This document shows positions 1,362 to 7,777 of a stretch of 17,145 nucleotides of DNA, in pieces. The notes under the pieces are model-generated. The model was not told the origin of the DNA. It did not search any database and saw only the letters and a list, made by a program, of their open reading frames with translations. Origin of the DNA: a virus (Duplodnaviria > Heunggongvirae > Uroviricota > Caudoviricetes); the IMG/VR virus record IMGVR_UViG_2579778652_000002, positions 1 through 17,145 of that record; one strand, given 5' to 3'. Numbering within the stretch: the stretch's first letter is position 1; the number at the start of each line of letters is the position of its first letter. The position numbers were made by a program, and so were the translations under genes.

Positions 1362-3488
1362 TTAACTCGGCATTAAGTCTGCCGGAGACTGCGGTGGTGA
1401 CTGGAATTGCTGTTGTTGTGACTCGGCGACATCTTTCAGAAGGCGTATTGCCTCCATCACTGCTTTGTCATCGATGTTTCTGGCTTGAGCCAGTTTATAG
1501 ACAGTGTTTGCCTGACTCTCCATCGCATCCTGCTGGGCAGTAAATGCTTTGATTTGAGTTTGAGCAGTTTCGTTAGTTGCTTTTTGCGCTTCTGCCTGCG
1601 CTGCTACCATTTGCGCCTGAGCGAGAACCATTTCAGGATTTGGCTGGCTTTGTGCTGCCATTTGCGCCTGTTGAACAATCTGCTGCTCTTTCTCATTGCG
1701 TGGTTTTGCAATACCAGATATCAGCAGTTGGTTTCGGTTGTACTCTTTGAAGTCATCAAGGCCTTCGCCATCGATATTGTCCAGAATAATACCCTGAATT
1801 GCCGGGCGCATTGGGTCTGTTGGAAGCATAGAGCTAAGGACATTTGTCAGTACAGAAACCGTTGCATCACGTCGTGCTGTGTAGCTTGGTCCAACATCAA
1901 CCGTCACATCGTATCGACCGACAGAAAGGTCATTTAACGCAACAACAGCCCCTGTTTGCCTGTCAACAACCTGTGCGCTCAGGACAGCGATATCATCACT
2001 TCCATCTTCGTTAACGATGCGCACTTCACGCTCTGAACCGTACACTTCACGCGCCATTGACAGCCATACTTCACCAGCGCGTTTAAGACTTTTCGCCATA
2101 TTGTCCAGATAGATAAACGAAGCCATATCTGCTCTGTTCATCAAGTTGTTAACCGTTTCCTGAGCAATATTACTTGGCATCTGCTGCATGGCCTGACTGC
2201 CGCCTGTAACCTCCTGAATATCAGCACTGGTTTGCTGTAGTAATGCAGCCAATGCCTGATTCATAACCGCAGGCTGTGTATATCCTGCCGGGGTAGCTCC
2301 AGCGATAATGTTGCCAGATTTATCTCTCACTTCGCGCAACGGCAAGAACGCTGGTCGTTTCTTGTTGCGAGCCTCCCAGTGCTTCTCAAGTCCACGAATT
2401 TGCTCCATGCCAACTATAGGGATCTGACCGGGGTCTTGCGCTGCAGTATCAGCCAGCATTGAAACCTGAAGGTTGTACAAACGCTGTGGATCCATTGCTT
2501 TTGCAATGTGCCCTTCGACACGCTCAATGTCATCAATGAACCAGCGTTTTCCATAAACCGGGATGAGGGGGATATGCTCACCAGGAATACGTCGAGGTTT
2601 CTCAAGGAAACCATCACCATCCACTACGGATACATACACCCGACGGCGCTTCACTGAGCGCCTTGCCACTTCCTGAAATCCAGCTATTGCCAGTTCATCT
2701 TCAATATCTTCGACCTGATCACTGTCGTATGTTGCAATCTCTCCAGTGATTTGATGTCGATAACTGATAACATCAACAGACTCTTTACGAACTTCGTAAT
2801 ACTTCGCTATGTAAATAACATCTTCATCAAACCAGTCATATTCCCAACTGGTCATAGACGTTACGTCCAGAGAAGCAGGAGGTTTCTTTCCGTATTCAGC
2901 CTCATATTTTTCAGGTGACAACGAATACATGCAGAACGCCCACAACGCGTCAGATTTGTCGTACTTCTTAGCGTCAGGGTCAAACCACACGGAGCGCGAC
3001 GGGTCGTATATTGGTTCAATAGCAATACGCTGACGATCGTCCATGGGGTCGTATTCATTGACCAGCATCGACGTCAAACGGAAGCAACCGAAACCACCAG
3101 TAGCAGCGTCGTCAAATGCATTATCGCAAGCCTCACCGCCATCAGTTTCTTCGTAGTCAGCACGGAACAGACCATTTAATTTATTGGCTAACTCTTCGCT
3201 TGCCTCTCTGTCACCAGGACGAAACTTAACGGTGATTCTGTTATTGCGGTATTCTGCAATGATGCGGTTAAGTTCAGTTGCTACCTTATTGATTTCAAAC
3301 TTAGGATACTTCTCTAACTGCTCATCAAGCTTAGTTCCAGCCGCCGTTGCTCCTTCCCATTGACCTCCGGGGACACGAGCAAACCTCGTAGCTTCAATGC
3401 ACTTTTCGCGCACTTCCTTCTGTGGAGAATAGGCGCGGTCAAACCTGAGCATGATCCGCTCATGTTTTTTCTCTAATGTCTCTGCCAT
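1362..3488 (-). CDS. Portal protein (P22/Sf6-type)
   Basis: About 708 aa with P22 portal-like motifs (VKRRRVY, GEHIPLIPV). Track ORF starts at a TTG at 3497; I prefer the in-frame ATG at 3488, 2 nt after the terminase stop. Confidence 0.85.
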   Translation of the reverse strand: MAETLEKKHERIMLRFDRAYSPQKEVREKCIEATRFARVPGGQWEGATAAGTKLDEQLEKYPKFEINKVATELNRIIAEYRNNRITVKFRPGDREASEELANKLNGLFRADYEETDGGEACDNAFDDAATGGFGCFRLTSMLVNEYDPMDDRQRIAIEPIYDPSRSVWFDPDAKKYDKSDALWAFCMYSLSPEKYEAEYGKKPPASLDVTSMTSWEYDWFDEDVIYIAKYYEVRKESVDVISYRHQITGEIATYDSDQVEDIEDELAIAGFQEVARRSVKRRRVYVSVVDGDGFLEKPRRIPGEHIPLIPVYGKRWFIDDIERVEGHIAKAMDPQRLYNLQVSMLADTAAQDPGQIPIVGMEQIRGLEKHWEARNKKRPAFLPLREVRDKSGNIIAGATPAGYTQPAVMNQALAALLQQTSADIQEVTGGSQAMQQMPSNIAQETVNNLMNRADMASFIYLDNMAKSLKRAGEVWLSMAREVYGSEREVRIVNEDGSDDIAVLSAQVVDRQTGAVVALNDLSVGRYDVTVDVGPSYTARRDATVSVLTNVLSSMLPTDPMRPAIQGIILDNIDGEGLDDFKEYNRNQLLISGIAKPRNEKEQQIVQQAQMAAQSQPNPEMVLAQAQMVAAQAEAQKATNETAQTQIKAFTAQQDAMESQANTVYKLAQARNIDDKAVMEAIRLLKDVAESQQQQFQSPPQSPADLMPS

Positions 3489-3490
3489 GT

Positions 3491-4903
3491 TTACCAACCG
3501 GAGGATGAGGGAACGTATATTTCAGTTTCTTCGCGGACCAATGCCGGGCAATGCATACACATCATCAGCGCATCAGCCAGGTTAGGAGATGGAATACCGA
3601 GCTTCTGCTTCATTTCGACCTTAGTCATTAGCTCCAGCTTCCCGTTGTTATTGAATTTGCGCTGAATCTGCGTCAGTTCTGCAAACAGCTTCTCCAGCAT
3701 CTTCTCGCCTATCGCTTCTTTGTCGAAACTCAGCATGTCGTCTGGGTCTGCATACTCACCGTAAACAACCGCCCGATATGTCAGATACAGCCTGTCAGCC
3801 AGCGCGTAATAGAATTGCGCTCGCTTATTGCGGAACACATCACCAATAGTGCGAACGTTGTCGCCCTGTACGACTTCATCAGCCCATGCTCCGGCCTGAT
3901 ACGGCGCATCTTCATCGAATGGCGATTCACTGCCCTTGAACATCGTGGCGGTGATTTTCTTGCCGGAGAACGCTTCCGTTGTCTGTCTGCGTAGGCCCGC
4001 ACCGACGCCATCACCATCCCACAGGTAATGGTCAGCGCCGTCTTCAATCGCCAGCGAAGTAGCCCAGTCAGCACCCTCGTTGATGTCCATCAGCAGACCT
4101 TCGGCAATGCGCTTAACTACCGAACCGTGACGCGATGCGTAACCTTTAGCATCCGGTCCTGTATCTGACGGGTCATGCGCAGAGACAACCGCACCTTTCG
4201 CTTTCCATCCGAGTTTCTTGTGCGCATCGGTTGCAGCTTCAAGCCATTCACGTTTGATGATTGCCATATCACTTGCGCTCACTGGCTCACCAAGCCAGAT
4301 GTGACGATACAGTGTCGGATTTCTGCGTTTACACTCTTCCATCTCCAGACGGAGAACTTCAGGAAAATGCGGGTTGTCGGTGTAGTTCACCGTCAGCAGG
4401 CAAATATCATCAGGAGGATTTACGACGAACCGCTGATAGGTATCGTCGAGGATGTTTTTCGGGTTGAAGCTCACCCATATTTCGGAAAACGGCTTGCGGA
4501 TGGTTGGTATCAGGATGTCCCATGATTCCTTCGTTACCGCTTCCGCTTCTTCCACCCAGCAAATATCAATACCTTCGAGCGATTTAATCTTCGTCGGGTT
4601 GTTTTTTATGCCGTAGAACATGAATTCAGCATTCGTTCCGAGATGACGAATCATTGAACGTTGAATTTCAAACTCAGCCGAATACCCTTCCCGCTCGATG
4701 GTGTCTTCAAGCAACCGGATTACCGAATCACTGATACTGTTTTGCAGCTCGCGAGCGCAGAGAATACGCACCGGCTGCCGACGCGCCGCTTCAACAAGCA
4801 GCCTCGCAATTGCCCATGATTTACCGCTACCTCGACCGCCTTTGGCGACTTTGTAGCGATGCGCCTCAATGAACGGTTCAAAGATAGGATTAATCGAGGT
4901 CAT
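3491..4903 (-). CDS. Terminase large subunit (ATPase/nuclease)
   Basis: 470 aa; Walker A GGRGSGKS near N-terminus; start overlaps small terminase stop (ATGA); directly upstream of portal. Confidence 0.9.
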   Translation of the reverse strand: MTSINPIFEPFIEAHRYKVAKGGRGSGKSWAIARLLVEAARRQPVRILCARELQNSISDSVIRLLEDTIEREGYSAEFEIQRSMIRHLGTNAEFMFYGIKNNPTKIKSLEGIDICWVEEAEAVTKESWDILIPTIRKPFSEIWVSFNPKNILDDTYQRFVVNPPDDICLLTVNYTDNPHFPEVLRLEMEECKRRNPTLYRHIWLGEPVSASDMAIIKREWLEAATDAHKKLGWKAKGAVVSAHDPSDTGPDAKGYASRHGSVVKRIAEGLLMDINEGADWATSLAIEDGADHYLWDGDGVGAGLRRQTTEAFSGKKITATMFKGSESPFDEDAPYQAGAWADEVVQGDNVRTIGDVFRNKRAQFYYALADRLYLTYRAVVYGEYADPDDMLSFDKEAIGEKMLEKLFAELTQIQRKFNNNGKLELMTKVEMKQKLGIPSPNLADALMMCMHCPALVREETEIYVPSSSGW

Positions 4904-5340
4904 TTTCCGAATAGAGTGCTCATCGGTGATGTTTCAATCTGGATTGCGCCGCCGTCTTTACCTGTTAACTCGTGATCAACCTTGTCGCGCCATTTATCCT
5001 TCTGTCGGTTCTTAAGCCAGAAGATGGCAGCTGTTGTATCAGGCGGGTAATACTTCTCAAGCGGAGTTTCGACAATTCTGTTTTCAATAACACGAATATC
5101 GATGTCTGGAGCCACAAAGCCCATAGCGCGTTGATAAAGACGGTCACTAACTTCTGCATCAGCGACGGCCTTACCCTTTTTTATGGACTCCGAAAACTTA
5201 GGATAATCAAGCTTCCACTTGTTAATAGTTGACTCACTGACTTCAAAGAAATCAGCAAGTTCTGCATCGGTGTAGCCCAGCAAGCACAGTTTGCGTGCCT
5301 GTTCGGCATACGCCTCTTGATACTTTGTTGGGCGCGCCAT
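4900..5340 (-). CDS. Terminase small subunit
   Basis: 146 aa with N-terminal HTH-like segment (LGYTDAELADFFEVSESTINKW); immediately upstream of and overlapping the large terminase. Confidence 0.8.
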   Translation of the reverse strand: MARPTKYQEAYAEQARKLCLLGYTDAELADFFEVSESTINKWKLDYPKFSESIKKGKAVADAEVSDRLYQRAMGFVAPDIDIRVIENRIVETPLEKYYPPDTTAAIFWLKNRQKDKWRDKVDHELTGKDGGAIQIETSPMSTLFGK

Positions 5341-5342
5341 GT

Positions 5343-5585
5343 TTATGCTCCGGTAGTGAACAGGTCTAACGCTTCCTTCGATTTACGCACCGCTTCGATT
5401 GTGCGGGTCGTGATATCCGAATTAGCGCCGCCTGACTGGAAGTGAATTTTGAATAGCTCAAGCTTCAACTCGTCAGTACCAATGAACTGAAATGCTTCTT
5501 CTGCGGCTGCGTTCTGGTTCATGACCAGCTTGTAAATCTCTAACTGGAATTTCTGTTCTTCAGTCATGGGAATAATCTCTGCCAT
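5343..5585 (-). CDS. Hypothetical 80-aa acidic protein (P22 orf80-like position, directly upstream of small terminase)
   Basis: GGAG RBS 8 nt upstream of ATG at 5585; stop abuts small terminase start; no recognisable domain. Confidence 0.55.
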   Translation of the reverse strand: MAEIIPMTEEQKFQLEIYKLVMNQNAAAEEAFQFIGTDELKLELFKIHFQSGGANSDITTRTIEAVRKSKEALDLFTTGA

Positions 5586-5604
5586 TGTTGGCTCCGTTTA
5601 TCCG

Positions 5605-5635
5605 TTAAAAGGGATATCAGTTAAGTTATCCCGTG
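5605..5635 (-). terminator. Possible weak intrinsic terminator downstream of the KilA-N gene
   Basis: Inverted repeat GGGATA(5611-5616)/TATCCC(5627-5632) with 10-nt loop; on the minus strand it is followed by only a short T-run (CTTTTAA). Confidence 0.3.
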
Positions 5636-5841
5636 TAGGGTATAAGCCATTGTCGAGACCACTCATTGAATGGTCTCTGCAATAACCGATGTCTTTCCAT
5701 CAGTCCGCCACCACAAAGAATCTTTTTTGCCATAAGGCAGGAGGTTCATCTTTCAGTGGCTGCCAGTGTTATTTCCCCACTTACTGGCTTGGGTTGTTTC
5801 GCGGTACTGCCGTAATGCAAAAACTGGATTAACCTGCGAAA

Positions 5842-6372
5842 TCACACCATTCCGGGCAAATACATTTGCACTTCATTTGCCACTCTCTCACGTGCAAAAT
5901 GAAGCAATCTTTTTCGCCCACCAACGCCCCACTTAGCCATTTGGCTTGCGCACTGGCTTATCGCTTTGGTTTCAGTATTGATGATGTGATCGATTCTATT
6001 CAGACGGGACATTGCGCCAACGCCGAGACGGACAACCGTTTTGAAAACTTCATAAACTTCGATTTCAAATTCCGGCTTAATCCATGCTGCATATCTGATT
6101 GCCAGAAGTTCAACACCCCACACACCTGGTTCTGCACCACCTTTGATTATTTTAAGTGGTTGAATTTGTTCCAAAGTGCTTTTTTGCACTTTGGCCTCCA
6201 GTGCTTTTATGAAGCGTTTTATCTGCGCGCTACGCAAAAACTGGCTTGGGCGCTGTTGCTCTGTAGCCTCTCCATTTGCAACTGCTGCTGCATGGAGATC
6301 GTTTAAGTTGTAGCGTCCATCCTCATCAACACGAACGGACACACCATTGACAATAACTGTTGGGTACTTCAT
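5842..6372 (-). CDS. KilA-N domain protein
   Basis: 176 aa; N-terminus VIVNGVSVRVDEDGRYNLNDLHAAA ... LLAIRYAAWIKPEFEIEV fits the KilA-N pattern as I recall it. Flanked by about 255 bp and 345 bp of non-coding DNA. Confidence 0.7.
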   Translation of the reverse strand: MKYPTVIVNGVSVRVDEDGRYNLNDLHAAAVANGEATEQQRPSQFLRSAQIKRFIKALEAKVQKSTLEQIQPLKIIKGGAEPGVWGVELLAIRYAAWIKPEFEIEVYEVFKTVVRLGVGAMSRLNRIDHIINTETKAISQCASQMAKWGVGGRKRLLHFARERVANEVQMYLPGMV

Positions 6373-6488
6373 CAGTGATTACCTTTTAGTGATGAACCTT
6401 GTCACACAGGATTCCGGCCCACAGAAAGGCACCGATCACCAAACCGGCATCCTCAAGGGTCATCCTGAAAGGTTCTGTGTTCAGAAGT

Positions 6489-6512
6489 CGCGCGTGTGAA
6501 GCGCGTTTGTTG
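6489..6512 (+). terminator. Possible plus-strand hairpin terminator (weak)
   Basis: CGCGC-gtgtgaa-GCGCG followed by TTTGTTG; back-to-back with the minus-strand terminator at 6517-6542. Confidence 0.3.
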
Positions 6513-6516
6513 CAGA

Positions 6517-6542
6517 TATAAAAAAGCCCCGCGAATGCGAGG
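6517..6542 (-). terminator. Intrinsic terminator downstream of the lysis cassette
   Basis: On the minus strand: GCCUCGC-AUUC-GCGGGGC (7-bp stem with one G-U) followed by UUUUUUAU. Confidence 0.6.
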
Positions 6543-6717
6543 CTAAATCCTGGTATTTGTAATGACTGGCTCTTATCTCAACGCAGCCCCTTACCGCGCG
6601 CCAGATGCTCAATATCAAGCATCAGCAATGAGATGTTTAATCTGGATTCACTCCAGAAGTGATCACCACCCTGCCTACAGAGCCAGATGTGAAGGATGAT
6701 GAGTAAAATTATCGCTA

Positions 6718-7185
6718 TCATCGAAGGCATTGCGTCCTGATGTATTCCTGAAGCGTTCTCAGTGCTGTTTGGTCGCGGATAATTCCGTCCCGGACACCGA
6801 GAACGTTTCGTCCAGCAACTGGAGAGAGTTCGACGGTGGCATCATTGCCCATGCCGGAGGCGCCGGAGGTTTCGGCTGAGGATGGCACAGGGCATTTTCC
6901 TTTGACGAGCACCCTGCCACCATTATCAAGCTTGCGCCGAAGAGCATCATTTTTAGCTTTCGCATCAGCTAACTCCTTCGTGTATTTAGCATCGAGTGCA
7001 TCAGCAGAACGCTGGCGCTGCTGCATGTCAGTAATGGTGGCGGTCGCCTGCTTCAGCTCACTGACTTTTTTATCTCGCTGTTCTTTGTAGGCGATGGCGT
7101 TATCACGGTAATGATTAACAGCCCATGACAGGCAGACGATGATGCAGATAACCAGAGCGGAGATAATCGCGGTTAACCGACTCAT
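6718..7185 (-). CDS. Rz: Rz i-spanin
   Basis: Begins [31 protein letters not shown], closely resembling lambda Rz; N-terminal TM then coiled-coil region. Track ORF extends upstream to 7314, but the conserved Met at 7185 is the likely start. Confidence 0.85.
6759..6965 (-). CDS. Rz1: Rz1 o-spanin lipoprotein, embedded in the +1 frame of Rz
   Basis: [19 protein letters not shown] lipobox followed by a proline-rich segment ([11 protein letters not shown]), like lambda Rz1; entirely nested in Rz. Confidence 0.75.
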
Positions 7186-7273
7186 GACATCAACACCCCA
7201 ACGGCCAGAAACCACGGACACGCATCGTTGCCATTCAATGCGAGCAACGCTGCCATGAAAAAGCAAATCATGC

Positions 7274-7777
7274 TCATTGTTGCCCCCACAAACAGACTTC
7301 ACGCTCAATCTCACGACGGGTCATCAGCCCTTTCCATTGCTTACCGCCAGCGTATGTCCAGCGCCGTAGCTGATCACATGCGCCCTTGATATCGCCCTGG
7401 TTTATTTTGCGAAGAAGCGTCGATGTTCTGAAATTGCCTGTGCCCACGTTATAGACGAACGAGTAAAGAGCGCCGCGCGTTGTTTCCGGTATATCGACTT
7501 TGATGTACGGGTTAATTTGTCTGGCGACCGTGGCAAGGTCTTTATTCAGGAGGGCTTTGCATTCTGCTTCGGTATACGTTTTACCGAGCATGATGTCTTT
7601 TCCGGTGTGTCCGTGGCATACAGTCCATACACCAACAATATCTTTGTATGGTATGTAGCTGACACCTTCCAGACCATCGTTACCACTTGGTCCAGTGATT
7701 AACACAGATGCTATAGCAATAGCCCCACCACTTATCGCCGCTATTACGCTATTTCGTAGTGCCGGTGACATTGCCAT
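7274..7777 (-). CDS. SAR endolysin (T4-lysozyme family, P21 R-like)
   Basis: N-terminal Gly/Ala-rich weakly hydrophobic SAR segment ([19 protein letters not shown]) then an E...D...T lysozyme motif ([19 protein letters not shown]); overlaps the holin 3' end. Confidence 0.85.

What the first reader, a model, noticed from the sequence alone, without database searches (positions are those of the whole stretch)
5586..6717. KilA-N gene forms a moron-like island bounded by long non-coding spacers and terminators between the lysis cassette and terminase
The KilA-N ORF (5842-6372) is flanked by about 345 bp upstream and about 255 bp downstream of non-coding DNA, unusual in an otherwise tightly packed late operon. 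Upstream there are back-to-back hairpin terminators on both strands (6489-6512 plus, 6517-6542 minus); downstream there is a weaker hairpin (5611-5632). This layout suggests a separately regulated cassette. KilA-N proteins are DNA-binding, and the domain is named after a host-killing phage protein. The spacers could also hide small RNAs or promoter elements.
Basis: partly seen in the sequence, partly recalled or inferred. Interest (0 to 1): 0.5.

Follow-up and report, generated by a model that had tools for sequence, protein, structure and literature searches.

The report
Portable KilA-N cassette with structured RNA leader
The KilA-N gene sits in a known swap-slot of a P22-like prophage, and the "empty" DNA in front of it encodes a conserved, pseudoknotted RNA leader, apparently undescribed, that hides the gene's ribosome-binding site and travels with this class of genes through many phages, including P22 and a Shiga-toxin-phage-type prophage of E. 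coli O157:H7 EDL933.

Summary
KilA-N (5842-6372, minus strand) lies between the lysis genes and DUF2560/terminase of a P22-like prophage, in a slot whose cargo differs among relatives (at least 36 architectures in 76 loci).

**Upstream spacer** contains:
- a conserved 50-aa ORF (6578-6730);
- one good sense-strand intrinsic terminator (6544-6520);
- a ~135-nt structured leader (6505-6381).

The "plus-strand terminator" is really hairpin H1 of this leader. H1's loop forms a 6-bp pseudoknot with an internal loop of a 93-nt hairpin. The base of that hairpin pairs the KilA-N Shine-Dalgarno with an anti-SD. Across 68 distinct sequences, 34 of 36 pairs covary.

**Distribution.** The terminator-H1-leader module precedes KilA-N, Rha (P22 rha), P22_AR_N, T5orf172 and HNH genes. 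These sit in late operons of podo-, sipho- and myovirus-type prophages. BLAST finds the leader in 880 of 5426 complete E. coli genomes. It matches no Rfam 15 family.

**Downstream spacer** is conserved flank, present whatever the cargo.

**Promoter.** No promoter was found, so "self-promoted moron" is not supported. The best reading is a late-only, translationally throttled passenger cassette.

The parts
6718..7314 (-). Rz-type spanin gene. It is the last lysis gene and forms the conserved upstream flank of the slot. The mechanical ORF is probably N-terminally over-extended.
   Evidence: Pfam Phage_lysis, E=7.5e-28.
6578..6730 (-). Conserved 50-aa ORF (Sf6 gp65 / epsilon34 gp67 / Kapi1_042-like). 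It overlaps the Rz stop by 13 nt and is not part of the KilA-N cassette.
   Evidence: PHROG 11822, E=3.9e-38. Present in 39 of 76 P22-like loci.
6520..6544 (-). Intrinsic terminator at the 5' edge of the cassette. Stem 6544-6537 / 6532-6525, loop 6536-6533, T-run 6525-6520.
   Evidence: dG -14.1 kcal/mol, z = -4.0. Annotated as a Rho-independent terminator in epsilon34. A terminator-like hairpin plus T-run, with many unrelated stem sequences, lies 32-96 nt upstream of 51 of 56 leader instances.
6489..6505 (-). Hairpin H1 of the leader RNA (CGCGC-UUCACAC-GCGCG). Loop nucleotides 6499-6494 form the 5' half of the pseudoknot.
   Evidence: A GCGC-N6-8-GCGC motif is present in 53 of 56 instances. 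The stem is 100% paired, with GUGC/GCAC variants. Plus-strand fold z = -0.05.
6381..6473 (-). 93-nt imperfect hairpin of the leader. P0 is the anti-SD ACCUUU (6473-6468) paired with AAAGGU (6386-6381), the Shine-Dalgarno of KilA-N. It also contains helices P1a-c, P2 and P3.
   Evidence: The same fold is the MFE structure for 7 divergent homologues. Covariance model hits of 118.5 and 137.9 bits in the window. 94.9-96.1% of cells are paired and 24/26 and 34/36 pairs covary. The SD core is less accessible than in 17 control genes.
6402..6407 (-). Internal-loop GUGUGA, the 3' half of the pseudoknot with the H1 loop.
   Evidence: The loop and its partner covary across at least 12 sequence types. 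Matched partners form 5.78 contiguous bp on average versus 3.61 for mismatched partners; 0 of 5000 permutations reach the observed mean. 6 of 6 pseudoknot pairs covary and 95.1% are paired, although the pseudoknot is not part of the covariance model.
6386..6463 (-). 25-aa ORF inside the leader. It is probably not a gene.
   Evidence: There is no start codon in the L095-type leaders. Frameshifting indels occur within the window-type class, and the peptides are unrelated.
5842..6372 (-). KilA-N gene, 176 aa. The KilA-N domain covers aa 9-113 (nt 6348-6034). The C-terminal ~60 aa resemble ORF11CD3.
   Evidence: Pfam KilA-N; PHROG 129. Full-length BLASTP to HK620 hkbK (KilA-N + ORF11CD3), E=6e-17. 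There is no direct Pfam ORF11CD3 hit, and hhalign gives E=0.017.
5814..6556 (-). Approximate extent of the portable cassette: terminator, H1, leader, KilA-N and ~27 nt after the stop codon.
   Evidence: Mosaic junctions from BLAST against 80 P22-like loci. SE1/ST104 share 5634-6543 and ST64B shares 5807-6543.
5635..5813 (-). Conserved inter-cargo spacer, not part of the KilA-N cassette. In relatives the part corresponding to window 5688-5815 precedes a second cargo position (gp49/66-family and other genes). An ATG at 5733 begins a 35-aa remnant ORF.
   Evidence: 97-99% identity in most loci whatever the cargo. epsilon34 misc_feature; Huey annotation.
5612..5633 (-). 6-bp hairpin followed by UUUU, 26 nt upstream of DUF2560, in conserved flank.
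   Evidence: dG -8.3 kcal/mol, z = -2.25. Conserved in all P22-like loci.
5343..5585 (-). DUF2560 gene (P22 orf80 / HK620 hkbM). It forms the conserved downstream flank and is followed by TerS (4900-5340) and TerL (3491-4903).
   Evidence: Pfam DUF2560, E=1.1e-43; Terminase_3, E=3.2e-41. PHROG 309 small terminase.

Best explanation
The region is the accessory slot of a P22-like (Lederbergvirus) prophage, between Rz plus a 50-aa ORF and DUF2560-terS. Its occupant is a ~740-bp portable cassette on the minus strand (about 5814-6556).

Order of elements in the cassette:
1. An intrinsic terminator.
2. A small GC hairpin, H1.
3. A 93-nt hairpin whose basal helix pairs the KilA-N Shine-Dalgarno with an upstream anti-SD. 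The H1 loop makes a 6-bp pseudoknot with an internal loop of this hairpin.
4. The KilA-N gene.

Shown here:
- The structure is conserved with abundant compensatory changes.
- The three-part 5' module travels with the gene into unrelated late-operon contexts.
- The same leader precedes other genes of the KilA-N / Rha / P22_AR_N (+ORF11CD3) / T5orf172 / HNH set.

Inferred:
- The cassette has no promoter of its own in this window.
- It is transcribed only when Q-modified, terminator-resistant RNA polymerase reads through from the late promoter. Unmodified polymerase stops at the terminator.
- The folded leader keeps translation of the DNA-binding KilA-N protein low or conditional. This matters because proteins of this class are harmful when over-expressed (P1 KilA; phi80/P22 Rha in IHF-deficient hosts).
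- Cargo swapping in the slot occurs by recombination in the shared terminator/leader and the conserved downstream spacer.

What, if anything, opens the leader is unknown. Candidates are RNase III cleavage, a protein, or another factor.
For: Slot variability:
- At least 36 architectures occur in 76 loci, including empty slots of 304 bp.
- Annotated phages carry different cargo.
- The exact arrangement is in 54 of 5426 E. coli genomes.

Leader structure:
- Seven divergent sequences fold independently into the same hairpin with the SD paired.
- RNAalifold on a plain MAFFT alignment recovers the inner helices, with covariation at all 10 pairs.
- On covariance-model alignments, 94.9% (A5) and 96.1% (A7) of cells are paired, against 75.8% and 78.4% in shuffles (0 of 500 in both).
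- 24 of 26 and 34 of 36 pairs change on both sides.
- The covariation score is 0.55 / 0.51, against 0.04-0.08 when partners are slid.

Pseudoknot:
- It was not modelled by the covariance model, yet 6 of 6 pairs covary and 95.1% are paired.
- The matched-versus-mismatched partner test gave 0 of 5000 permutations.

Strand:
- G-U/U-G cells number 55 against 24 A-C/C-A cells.
- The model scores 118.5 bits on the sense strand and 22.8 on the antisense strand.

SD accessibility:
- The median unpaired probability of the SD core is 0.22, against 0.42 for 17 other genes of the window (p=4e-4).

Portability:
- A terminator is present upstream of 51 of 56 instances and H1 in 53 of 56.
- The cassette is found after Rz, tail tube, tail terminator, DUF6246 and tape-measure genes.
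- It is found between R and Rz in a Stx-phage-type late region (nanS-p-like esterase, lysis genes, bor, terminase) of O157:H7 EDL933.

Cargo spectrum behind the leader:
- Rha+ORF11CD3 30, hkbK-type KilA-N 8, this KilA-N 6, another KilA-N 3, T5orf172 4, Rha 2, unknown 1.
- Also HNH_3+HTH, P22_AR_N+ORF11CD3 and P22 rha.

Promoter:
- No promoter-like site lies on the coding strand in the spacers.
Against: - No expression data exist for this cassette. Translational repression is inferred from structure only.
- The SD-accessibility difference is moderate, and the SD itself is weak.
- In some lineages (L095, L100, L114, L091-93) a perfect TATAAT lies between H1 and the long hairpin. Some versions may therefore have their own promoter.
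- A different cargo in the same slot (Kapi1_043) is the most highly expressed prophage gene in lysogens (PMC12922286). Transcription can therefore reach this slot in the prophage state.
- Covariance-model alignments lean towards the modelled helices, and the shuffle control ignores phylogeny.
- Read-through of the terminator by Q-modified polymerase is textbook inference, not tested here.
- Whether the tail-operon hosts use Q-type antitermination was not checked.
Confidence: 0.65

Rival explanations
1. Classical moron. The KilA-N cassette has its own promoter, is transcribed independently of the late operon (for example in the lysogen), and is insulated by terminators.
For: - The slot cargo varies.
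- Kapi1_043 in the same slot is highly expressed in lysogens.
- A perfect TATAAT lies between H1 and the hairpin in some lineages.
- There is a terminator at the cassette edge.
Against: - No promoter-like site of 9/12 or better lies on the coding strand between 6545 and 6373.
- The window has TCTGAA where other lineages have TATAAT.
- H1 lies upstream of that position and still covaries with the internal loop as RNA. Transcripts must therefore start upstream of H1.
- The terminator is upstream of the gene, not downstream.
- There is no compositional anomaly.
- The SD is sequestered.
Confidence: 0.2
2. The conserved inverted repeats act at the DNA level, as an operator for a dimeric regulator, a recombination site or a cruciform. 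On this view they are not an RNA leader.
For: - H1 is a GC palindrome. In TATAAT-type lineages it is centred about 24 bp upstream of the presumed start site.
- Mosaic junctions coincide with the terminator/leader region.
Against: - G-U pairs outnumber A-C by 55 to 24.
- The model scores 118.5 bits on the sense strand and 22.8 on the antisense strand.
- The outermost helix pairs precisely the SD.
- A loop-to-internal-loop pseudoknot has no DNA-level rationale.
Confidence: 0.08
3. The leader is an active switch or a catalytic RNA rather than a passive lock. It might be a riboswitch-like or protein- or RNase III-responsive element, or a self-cleaving RNA whose cleavage frees the SD.
For: - The fold is elaborate and conserved, with a pseudoknot and a closing helix that contains the SD.
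- A hairpin loop pairing with an internal loop recalls pistol ribozymes (from memory).
- The long duplex (about 30 bp, with bulges) is a plausible RNase III substrate (inference).
Against: - No Rfam family, including all ribozyme and riboswitch classes, matches at E<=1.
- Few unpaired nucleotides are conserved, and the pseudoknot sequences vary freely. That argues against a small-molecule pocket.
- The strand topology appears to differ from pistol (pistol topology recalled from memory).
Confidence: 0.3
4. The 25-aa hydrophobic ORF (6386-6463) is a real small toxin or leader peptide, and the hairpin merely reflects its coding sequence or a translational-coupling device of the repY/repZ type.
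For: - An ATG lies in the hairpin, and the ORF's stop codon abuts the KilA-N SD.
- PHROG 16173 matches.
- ATG or GTG occurs at a similar place in several lineages.
Against: - There is no start codon in the L095-type leaders.
- Frame-shifting indels occur among close relatives, and the peptides are unrelated.
- The ORF has no SD of its own.
Confidence: 0.04

Closest known systems
RBS-sequestering hairpins (with nearby terminators or processing sites) that restrain free-standing homing-endonuclease genes in T4-type phages: I-TevI/II/III, segB, Aeh1 mobE (review PMC2988022)
   Same: - Passenger genes are inserted between essential phage genes.
- A stable RNA structure pairs the Shine-Dalgarno, so read-through transcripts are poorly translated.
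- Terminators limit transcription.
- Some cargo behind the present leader are T5orf172 (GIY-YIG-related) and HNH genes.
   Different: - In T4 a late promoter inside the hairpin yields transcripts that lack the 5' arm and are translatable. No such internal promoter is seen here.
- The present element is much larger (about 135 nt), has a covarying pseudoknot, and is one homologous family shared by many cargo types.
- Most cargo here are DNA-binding proteins with no known nuclease domain.
P22 rha (orf201) and phi80 rha; HK620 hkbK; epsilon34 gp68
   Same: - They occupy the same slot (P22-like phages).
- They have the same leader family: P22 46.9-52.9 bits, HK620 63-85 bits, epsilon34 45-59 bits.
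- They share a related C-terminal region (ORF11CD3) in Rha and hkbK.
- rha is described as a late-operon gene detrimental to lytic growth when IHF is absent (PMC4936722, citing Henthorn & Friedman 1995).
   Different: - The N-terminal domains differ (Rha or T5orf172 versus KilA-N).
- The window protein has no direct Pfam ORF11CD3 hit.
- No IHF-like site is found in the window leader.
Morons of lambdoid phages (Juhala/Hendrix concept; 'ant moron' of P22-like phages, PMC2629481)
   Same: An extra, non-essential gene is present in only some relatives at a fixed position in a late operon, with associated transcription signals.
   Different: - The terminator is upstream of the gene rather than downstream.
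- There is no detectable promoter and no compositional difference.
- The leader suggests restricted rather than prophage-state expression.
Activator pseudoknot of IncI-alpha/IncB plasmid repZ/repA mRNAs (from memory: Asano & Mizobuchi; Praszkier & Pittard)
   Same: A hairpin loop pairs with a distal segment close to a sequestered RBS, and a small upstream ORF ends at the RBS of the main gene.
   Different: - In that system the pseudoknot forms only after leader-peptide translation and activates translation, and an antisense RNA competes for the loop.
- Here the partner is an internal loop compatible with the closed hairpin, the small ORF is not conserved, and no antisense RNA is evident.
Kapi1_043 (Tad2-like) in phage Kapi1 (PMC12922286)
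   Same: It occupies exactly the same slot, after the same 50-aa ORF and terminator.
   Different: - It has no leader; only about 30 nt separate the terminator from its ATG.
- It is reported as the most highly expressed prophage gene in lysogeny.

Membership tests
KilA-N domain proteins (Pfam PF04383) | A match to the family HMM above the gathering score. | tested here: met
   65.9 bits against a cut-off of 23.8, E=3.5e-18, aa 9-113.
ORF11CD3 C-terminal domain (Pfam PF10549) | A match of the C-terminal ~55 aa to the family HMM. | tested here: inconclusive
   There is no Pfam hit even at E<=10. However, the full-length alignment to hkbK (ORF11CD3, E=2.4e-13) gives E=6e-17 and covers that region. 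hhalign against the Rha-type C-terminus gives E=0.017 over 37 columns.
Moron (independently expressed insert in a phage operon) | Present in some but not all related genomes at the same position. | tested here: met
Moron (independently expressed insert in a phage operon) | Its own promoter upstream of the gene. | tested here: not met
   No sigma-70-like site lies on the coding strand in 6373-6577. The -10 position seen in other lineages is TCTGAA here. A consensus scan is weak evidence.
Moron (independently expressed insert in a phage operon) | Its own terminator downstream of the gene. | tested here: not met
   No terminator lies in the ~27 nt of cassette-specific 3' sequence. The only hairpin (5612-5633) is in conserved flank.
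Moron (independently expressed insert in a phage operon) | Expression from the repressed prophage. | not testable with these tools
   RNA-seq or dRNA-seq of a lysogen is needed. Only a different cargo in this slot has data.
Intrinsic (Rho-independent) terminator | A GC-rich stem-loop followed by a U tract on the transcribed strand. | tested here: met
   An 8-bp stem (6 G-C pairs), a 4-nt loop, a T-run of 6 whose first T closes the stem (5 unpaired U follow), dG -14.1 kcal/mol, z = -4.0. Termination activity was not tested.
T4-type RBS-sequestering regulation of passenger genes | The Shine-Dalgarno is paired in a stable, conserved structure. | tested here: met
   The P0 helix is 92-94% paired and all its pairs covary.
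T4-type RBS-sequestering regulation of passenger genes | A promoter inside or after the 5' arm, giving translatable transcripts. | tested here: not met
   No promoter-like site lies within 6373-6473, and no conserved -35/-10 appears in the alignment.
Any Rfam 15 family (including pistol, twister, hammerhead, c4, isrK) | A covariance-model match. | tested here: not met
   There is no hit at E<=1 at the leader in the window or in six other loci.
Type I toxin-antitoxin (small hydrophobic toxin with a structured 5' UTR) | A conserved small toxin ORF. | tested here: not met
   The 25-aa ORF is not conserved as a protein.
LexA- or IHF-controlled antirepressor genes | A LexA box or an IHF site in the upstream region. 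| tested here: not met
   No match lies in 6373-6560, and window-wide counts are at chance level.

The most novel reading that the evidence does not exclude
The terminator-H1-pseudoknotted hairpin is a previously undescribed family of regulatory RNA. It acts as a true switch, opened by a specific trans-acting signal such as RNase III, a phage or host protein (possibly linked to the old Rha/IHF phenotype), or self-cleavage. It governs a whole guild of mobile DNA-binding or nuclease 'passenger' genes (KilA-N, Rha, P22_AR_N, T5orf172, HNH) in the late operons of temperate enterobacterial phages, including P22 and Shiga-toxin phages. The shared leader also serves as the recombination handle that shuffles these genes.
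Probability: 0.35. Interest if true: 0.8.

Novelty: new variant of a known kind. Interest (0 to 1): 0.68.

Why it matters
**What is ordinary.** The gene island is a hypervariable accessory slot that annotated P22-like genomes already display.

**What is new.** The leader RNA is a large element, very well supported by covariation and containing a pseudoknot. No feature is annotated under any match listed from RefSeq. It is absent from Rfam 15 and from the literature I could search.

**Where it occurs.**
- In classic model phages: P22 rha, HK620 hkbK, epsilon34 gp68.
- Inside the lysis cassette of a Stx-phage-type prophage of E. coli O157:H7 EDL933.
- In 880 of 5426 complete E. coli genomes (by BLAST with the window-type leader), with a median of 3 and up to 10 places per genome.

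**What it offers.**
- A concrete, testable handle on how phages keep potentially harmful KilA-N / Rha / 'antirepressor'-type passengers in check.
- A possible route to the 30-year-old observation that Rha blocks phage growth in IHF mutants.
- An account of how cargo is exchanged between unrelated late operons.

**A design principle it suggests.** A cassette that begins with a terminator should be tolerated only inside antiterminated operons. That would make it strictly late-expressed, the opposite of a lysogen-expressed moron.

Tried and rejected
- **Rfam 15, E-value mode:** the window (4800-7500) and six related loci gave nothing at the leader.
- **PADLOC:** no hit for KilA-N, DUF2560 or the 50-aa ORF.
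- **PDB sequence search:** no relative.
- **Promoter consensus scan:** none on the coding strand in the spacers.
- **LexA-box and IHF-site scans:** nothing at the cassette, and counts are at chance level.
- **Flanking direct or inverted repeats and GC anomaly:** none.
- **25-aa ORF as a gene:** rejected.
- **Plus-strand terminator at 6489-6505:** rejected (z = -0.05).
- **Direct Pfam ORF11CD3 membership of the window protein:** not obtained.
- **RNAalifold on the raw MAFFT alignment:** it recovered only the inner helices, because gaps misregister the outer arms. The covariance-model route was used instead.
- **Henthorn & Friedman 1995 (PMC177009):** could not be read.
- **Kapi1 supplementary expression tables:** not held.
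- **Tree et al. 2014 anti-sRNAs and the 2026 Pas-sRNA preprint:** the anti-sRNAs lie 3' of PR' rather than here, and the preprint contained none of the search terms for this locus.
- **Leader upstream of distant KilA-N homologues** (Pseudomonas, Chromatium, Luteimonas and others; L142-L166): no hits.
- **Protein structure prediction:** not run, because it would not bear on the main question.
Full report
**Context.** All genes in this part of the window are on the minus strand. In the order of transcription they are:
- Q antiterminator (9246-8623)
- holin (7952-7749)
- lysozyme (7777-7274)
- Rz (7314-6718)
- a 50-aa ORF (6730-6578)
- KilA-N (6372-5842)
- DUF2560 (5585-5343)
- small terminase (5340-4900) and large terminase (4903-3491)

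Megablast identifies a P22-like (Lederbergvirus) prophage. The full 1.4-kb arrangement occurs in 54 of 5426 complete E. coli genomes. Parts of it, mainly the flanks, match in 2775.

**Check of the observation.**
- The KilA-N ORF and its coordinates are correct (Pfam E=3.5e-18).
- The sense-strand terminator is real: stem 6544-6525, T-run to 6520, dG -14.1 kcal/mol, z = -4.0. It is annotated as a Rho-independent terminator at the same place in epsilon34.
- The upstream 'spacer' is not all non-coding. A 50-aa ORF that overlaps the Rz stop is conserved in 39 of 76 relatives and annotated in epsilon34, Kapi1 and Huey.
- The 'plus-strand terminator' is a 5-bp hairpin that folds no better than shuffled sequence on the plus strand (z = -0.05).
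- The downstream hairpin exists but lies in conserved flank.

**The slot is variable.** I compared 76 P22-like loci that have both Rz and DUF2560 anchors.
- The interval ranges from 304 bp (only the 50-aa ORF and a terminator) to about 1.9 kb, with at least 36 gene architectures.
- A first cargo position holds Rha+ORF11CD3 genes, three unrelated KilA-N types, T5orf172/MUG113 genes, Tad2-like genes and others.
- A second cargo position holds N4-gp49/Sf6-gp66-family and other small genes.
- Window 5635-5813 is 97-99% identical in most loci whatever the first cargo. In many loci the part corresponding to window 5688-5815 is separated from DUF2560 by the second cargo.
- The 255-bp 'downstream spacer' is therefore conserved inter-cargo DNA with an empty second position. 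It includes a 35-aa remnant ORF that starts at 5733.
- Only about 27 nt after the KilA-N stop codon belong to the KilA-N unit.
- There are no flanking repeats and no GC anomaly.

**The cassette is portable.**
- The same KilA-N module (5807-6543) occurs in ST64B, again after Rz but before HNH/terminase genes of a different phage type.
- Close homologues (53-87% amino-acid identity) occur across the Enterobacterales, plus one aeromonad metagenome-assembled genome.
- Their upstream neighbours include a tail tube protein, a tape-measure protein and DUF6246. One locus lies between a tail terminator and a tail sheath gene, and others lie after Rz.
- The cassette is mostly co-oriented with its neighbours.

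**A structured leader travels with the gene.** Aligning the upstream regions showed that about 170 nt before the ATG travel with the gene.
- Folding seven divergent versions separately gave the same architecture each time.
- That architecture is a long imperfect hairpin, 6473-6381 in the window. Its outermost helix pairs ACCUUU (6473-6468) with AAAGGU (6386-6381), the Shine-Dalgarno of KilA-N.
- A covariance model built from eight window-type sequences (R1) found the element in front of nearly all of the close Enterobacterales homologues, plus four extra copies.
- It also found the element in front of the first-position cargo of 54 P22-like loci. Counts behind the leader there were: Rha+ORF11CD3 30, hkbK-type KilA-N 8, this KilA-N 6, another KilA-N 3, T5orf172 4, Rha 2, unknown 1.
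- HK620 hkbK, epsilon34 gp68 and P22 rha all have the leader. Tad2-like cargo does not.
- On the model-derived alignment, 94.9% of cells are paired against 75.8% in shuffles, and 24 of 26 pairs change on both sides. The covariation score is 0.55, against 0.05-0.08 when partners are slid.
- RNAalifold on an unfitted MAFFT alignment already gave the inner helices, with compensatory changes at all ten pairs.

**A pseudoknot links H1 to the long hairpin.**
- Upstream of the long hairpin, 53 of 56 instances carry a small hairpin H1 (GCGC-N6-8-GCGC; window 6505-6489).
- In addition, 51 of 56 carry an intrinsic-terminator-like hairpin plus T-run, 32-96 nt upstream, with many unrelated stem sequences.
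- The H1 loop (UUCACAC) is complementary to the conserved 3'-side internal loop of the long hairpin (GUGUGA, 6407-6402).
- The two covary through at least a dozen sequence types. Examples are UCGCAC/GUGCGA, UCUCAC/GUGAGA, UUCUCG/CGAGAA, UGCCCA/UGGGCA and UUAGCAC/GUGCUAA.
- Matched partners form 5.78 contiguous base pairs on average, against 3.61 for mismatched partners. None of 5000 permutations reaches the observed mean.
- A second model with H1 (R2) aligned 69 instances. I then added the pseudoknot as a second bracket type. The model cannot represent it, so the alignment is not fitted to it.
- With the pseudoknot included, all six pseudoknot pairs covary and 95.1% are paired. The whole structure has 34 of 36 covarying pairs and 96.1% pairing.
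- G-U pairs outnumber A-C by 55 to 24, and the antisense strand scores 22.8 bits against 118.5. The functional strand is therefore the mRNA strand.
- The SD core has a median unpaired probability of 0.22, against 0.42 for 17 other genes of the window (p=4e-4).
- The 25-aa ORF inside the leader is not conserved as a protein.

**Distribution and prior knowledge.**
- BLAST with the 137-nt window-type leader finds it in 880 of 5426 complete E. coli genomes, with a median of 3 and up to 10 places per genome. No RefSeq feature is annotated under any of the 30 listed matches.
- In O157:H7 EDL933 one copy (131.7 bits) lies between lysozyme and Rz in a Stx-phage-type late region (nanS-p-like esterase, lysis genes, bor, terminase). 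It sits in front of a P22_AR_N+ORF11CD3 'antirepressor'.
- No Rfam 15 family matches.
- The papers I could search do not describe the element. The EHEC anti-sRNAs lie elsewhere.

**Mechanism.** The anatomy and its conservation are shown. The following steps are inferred.
- The cassette starts with a terminator and lacks a recognisable promoter in this window.
- It should therefore be transcribed only by Q-modified, terminator-resistant polymerase coming from the late promoter. This rests on established lambdoid biology.
- The leader then folds and limits ribosome access to a weak SD.
- This resembles the RBS-sequestering hairpins and terminators that restrain free-standing homing-endonuclease genes in T4-type phages (PMC2988022). 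Here, however, no internal promoter frees the RBS, and the RNA is far more elaborate.
- The need for restraint fits what is reported for the class. P22/phi80 rha is detrimental to lytic growth without IHF (PMC4936722), and P1 KilA is lethal (from memory).
- What opens the lock, if anything does, is unknown. No IHF or LexA site is present.
- The shared terminator and leader on one side, and the conserved spacer on the other, provide homology for cargo exchange. This explains junctions that fall right at start codons.

**Caveats.**
- There are no expression data for this cassette.
- Some lineages have a perfect TATAAT between H1 and the hairpin.
- A different, leaderless cargo in this slot is strongly expressed in Kapi1 lysogens.
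- The shuffle statistics do not correct for phylogeny.
- The window protein's ORF11CD3 affinity is only indirect.

**Verdict.** The island is an ordinary variable slot and is not a demonstrated self-promoted moron. Its upstream 'spacer' carries a new, widely distributed, pseudoknotted leader RNA that deserves experimental follow-up.

Noticed in passing
window 6578-6730 (minus): A 50-aa ORF overlaps the Rz stop by 13 nt. It is conserved in 39 of 76 P22-like loci (Sf6 gp65 / epsilon34 gp67 / Kapi1_042; PHROG 11822). The Kapi1 record notes a predicted signal peptide. Its function is unknown.
   Followed up: partly
window 5635-5815 (minus); L004, L006: A second cargo position lies downstream of KilA-N. 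In relatives a conserved ~128-nt block (window 5688-5815) precedes N4-gp49/Sf6-gp66-family genes (annotated 'anti-CRISPR' in phage Huey) and other small genes. In the window that position is empty and a 35-aa remnant ORF starts at 5733. The block contains hairpins but gave no Rfam or model hit.
   Followed up: partly
L087 (Kapi1) 2545-3147; L004, L010, L027, L031, L078: Tad2-like (Thoeris anti-defence) genes occupy the same slot without the leader. In Kapi1 only about 30 nt separate the terminator from the ATG, yet the gene is reported as the most highly expressed prophage gene in lysogens. Its promoter is unexplained.
   Followed up: partly
L095-L098, L100, L103, L108, L114, L091-L093 (about 15-25 nt upstream of the long hairpin): A TATAAT or TACAAT lies between H1 and the long hairpin in these lineages only, with H1 centred about 24 bp upstream. 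This could be a lineage-specific promoter with H1 acting as an operator-like palindrome. The window has TCTGAA at that position.
   Followed up: partly
L119 2552-2685; L100 1836-1954; L128 4170-4307; L118 1874-2021: These loci carry second copies of the leader.
- One is followed by only an 11-aa ORF and looks like a decayed cassette.
- One precedes an HNH_3+HTH endonuclease.
- One precedes a 271-aa protein.
- One precedes a 198-aa protein with no Pfam hit.
   Followed up: partly
L168 (E. coli O157:H7 EDL933) 2496-3347: The leader and a P22_AR_N+ORF11CD3 'antirepressor' are inserted inside the lysis cassette, between lysozyme and Rz, of a Stx-phage-type prophage. There are 7 leader-like places in this genome.
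   Followed up: partly
L125 730-918: A strong Rfam hit to the sRNA family STnc100 (82.9 bits) lies about 2 kb upstream of the KilA-N cassette in an Enterobacter prophage region.
   Followed up: no
window 6718-7314 (minus): The mechanical Rz ORF (198 aa from GTG) is about 45-50 aa longer than the annotated Rz proteins of relatives (145-155 aa), so the real start is probably internal. An embedded Rz1 ORF, expected by analogy with epsilon34 and P22, was not examined.
   Followed up: no
L167 (P22, BK000583) 1276-1881: The annotated start of P22 rha (orf201) lies inside the leader hairpin (model hit 1204-1347). The true start is probably downstream, so the deposited protein is likely N-terminally over-extended. 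Several IMG/VR ORF calls show the same problem (the 'MRQAHFLKGKDAM' extension).
   Followed up: partly
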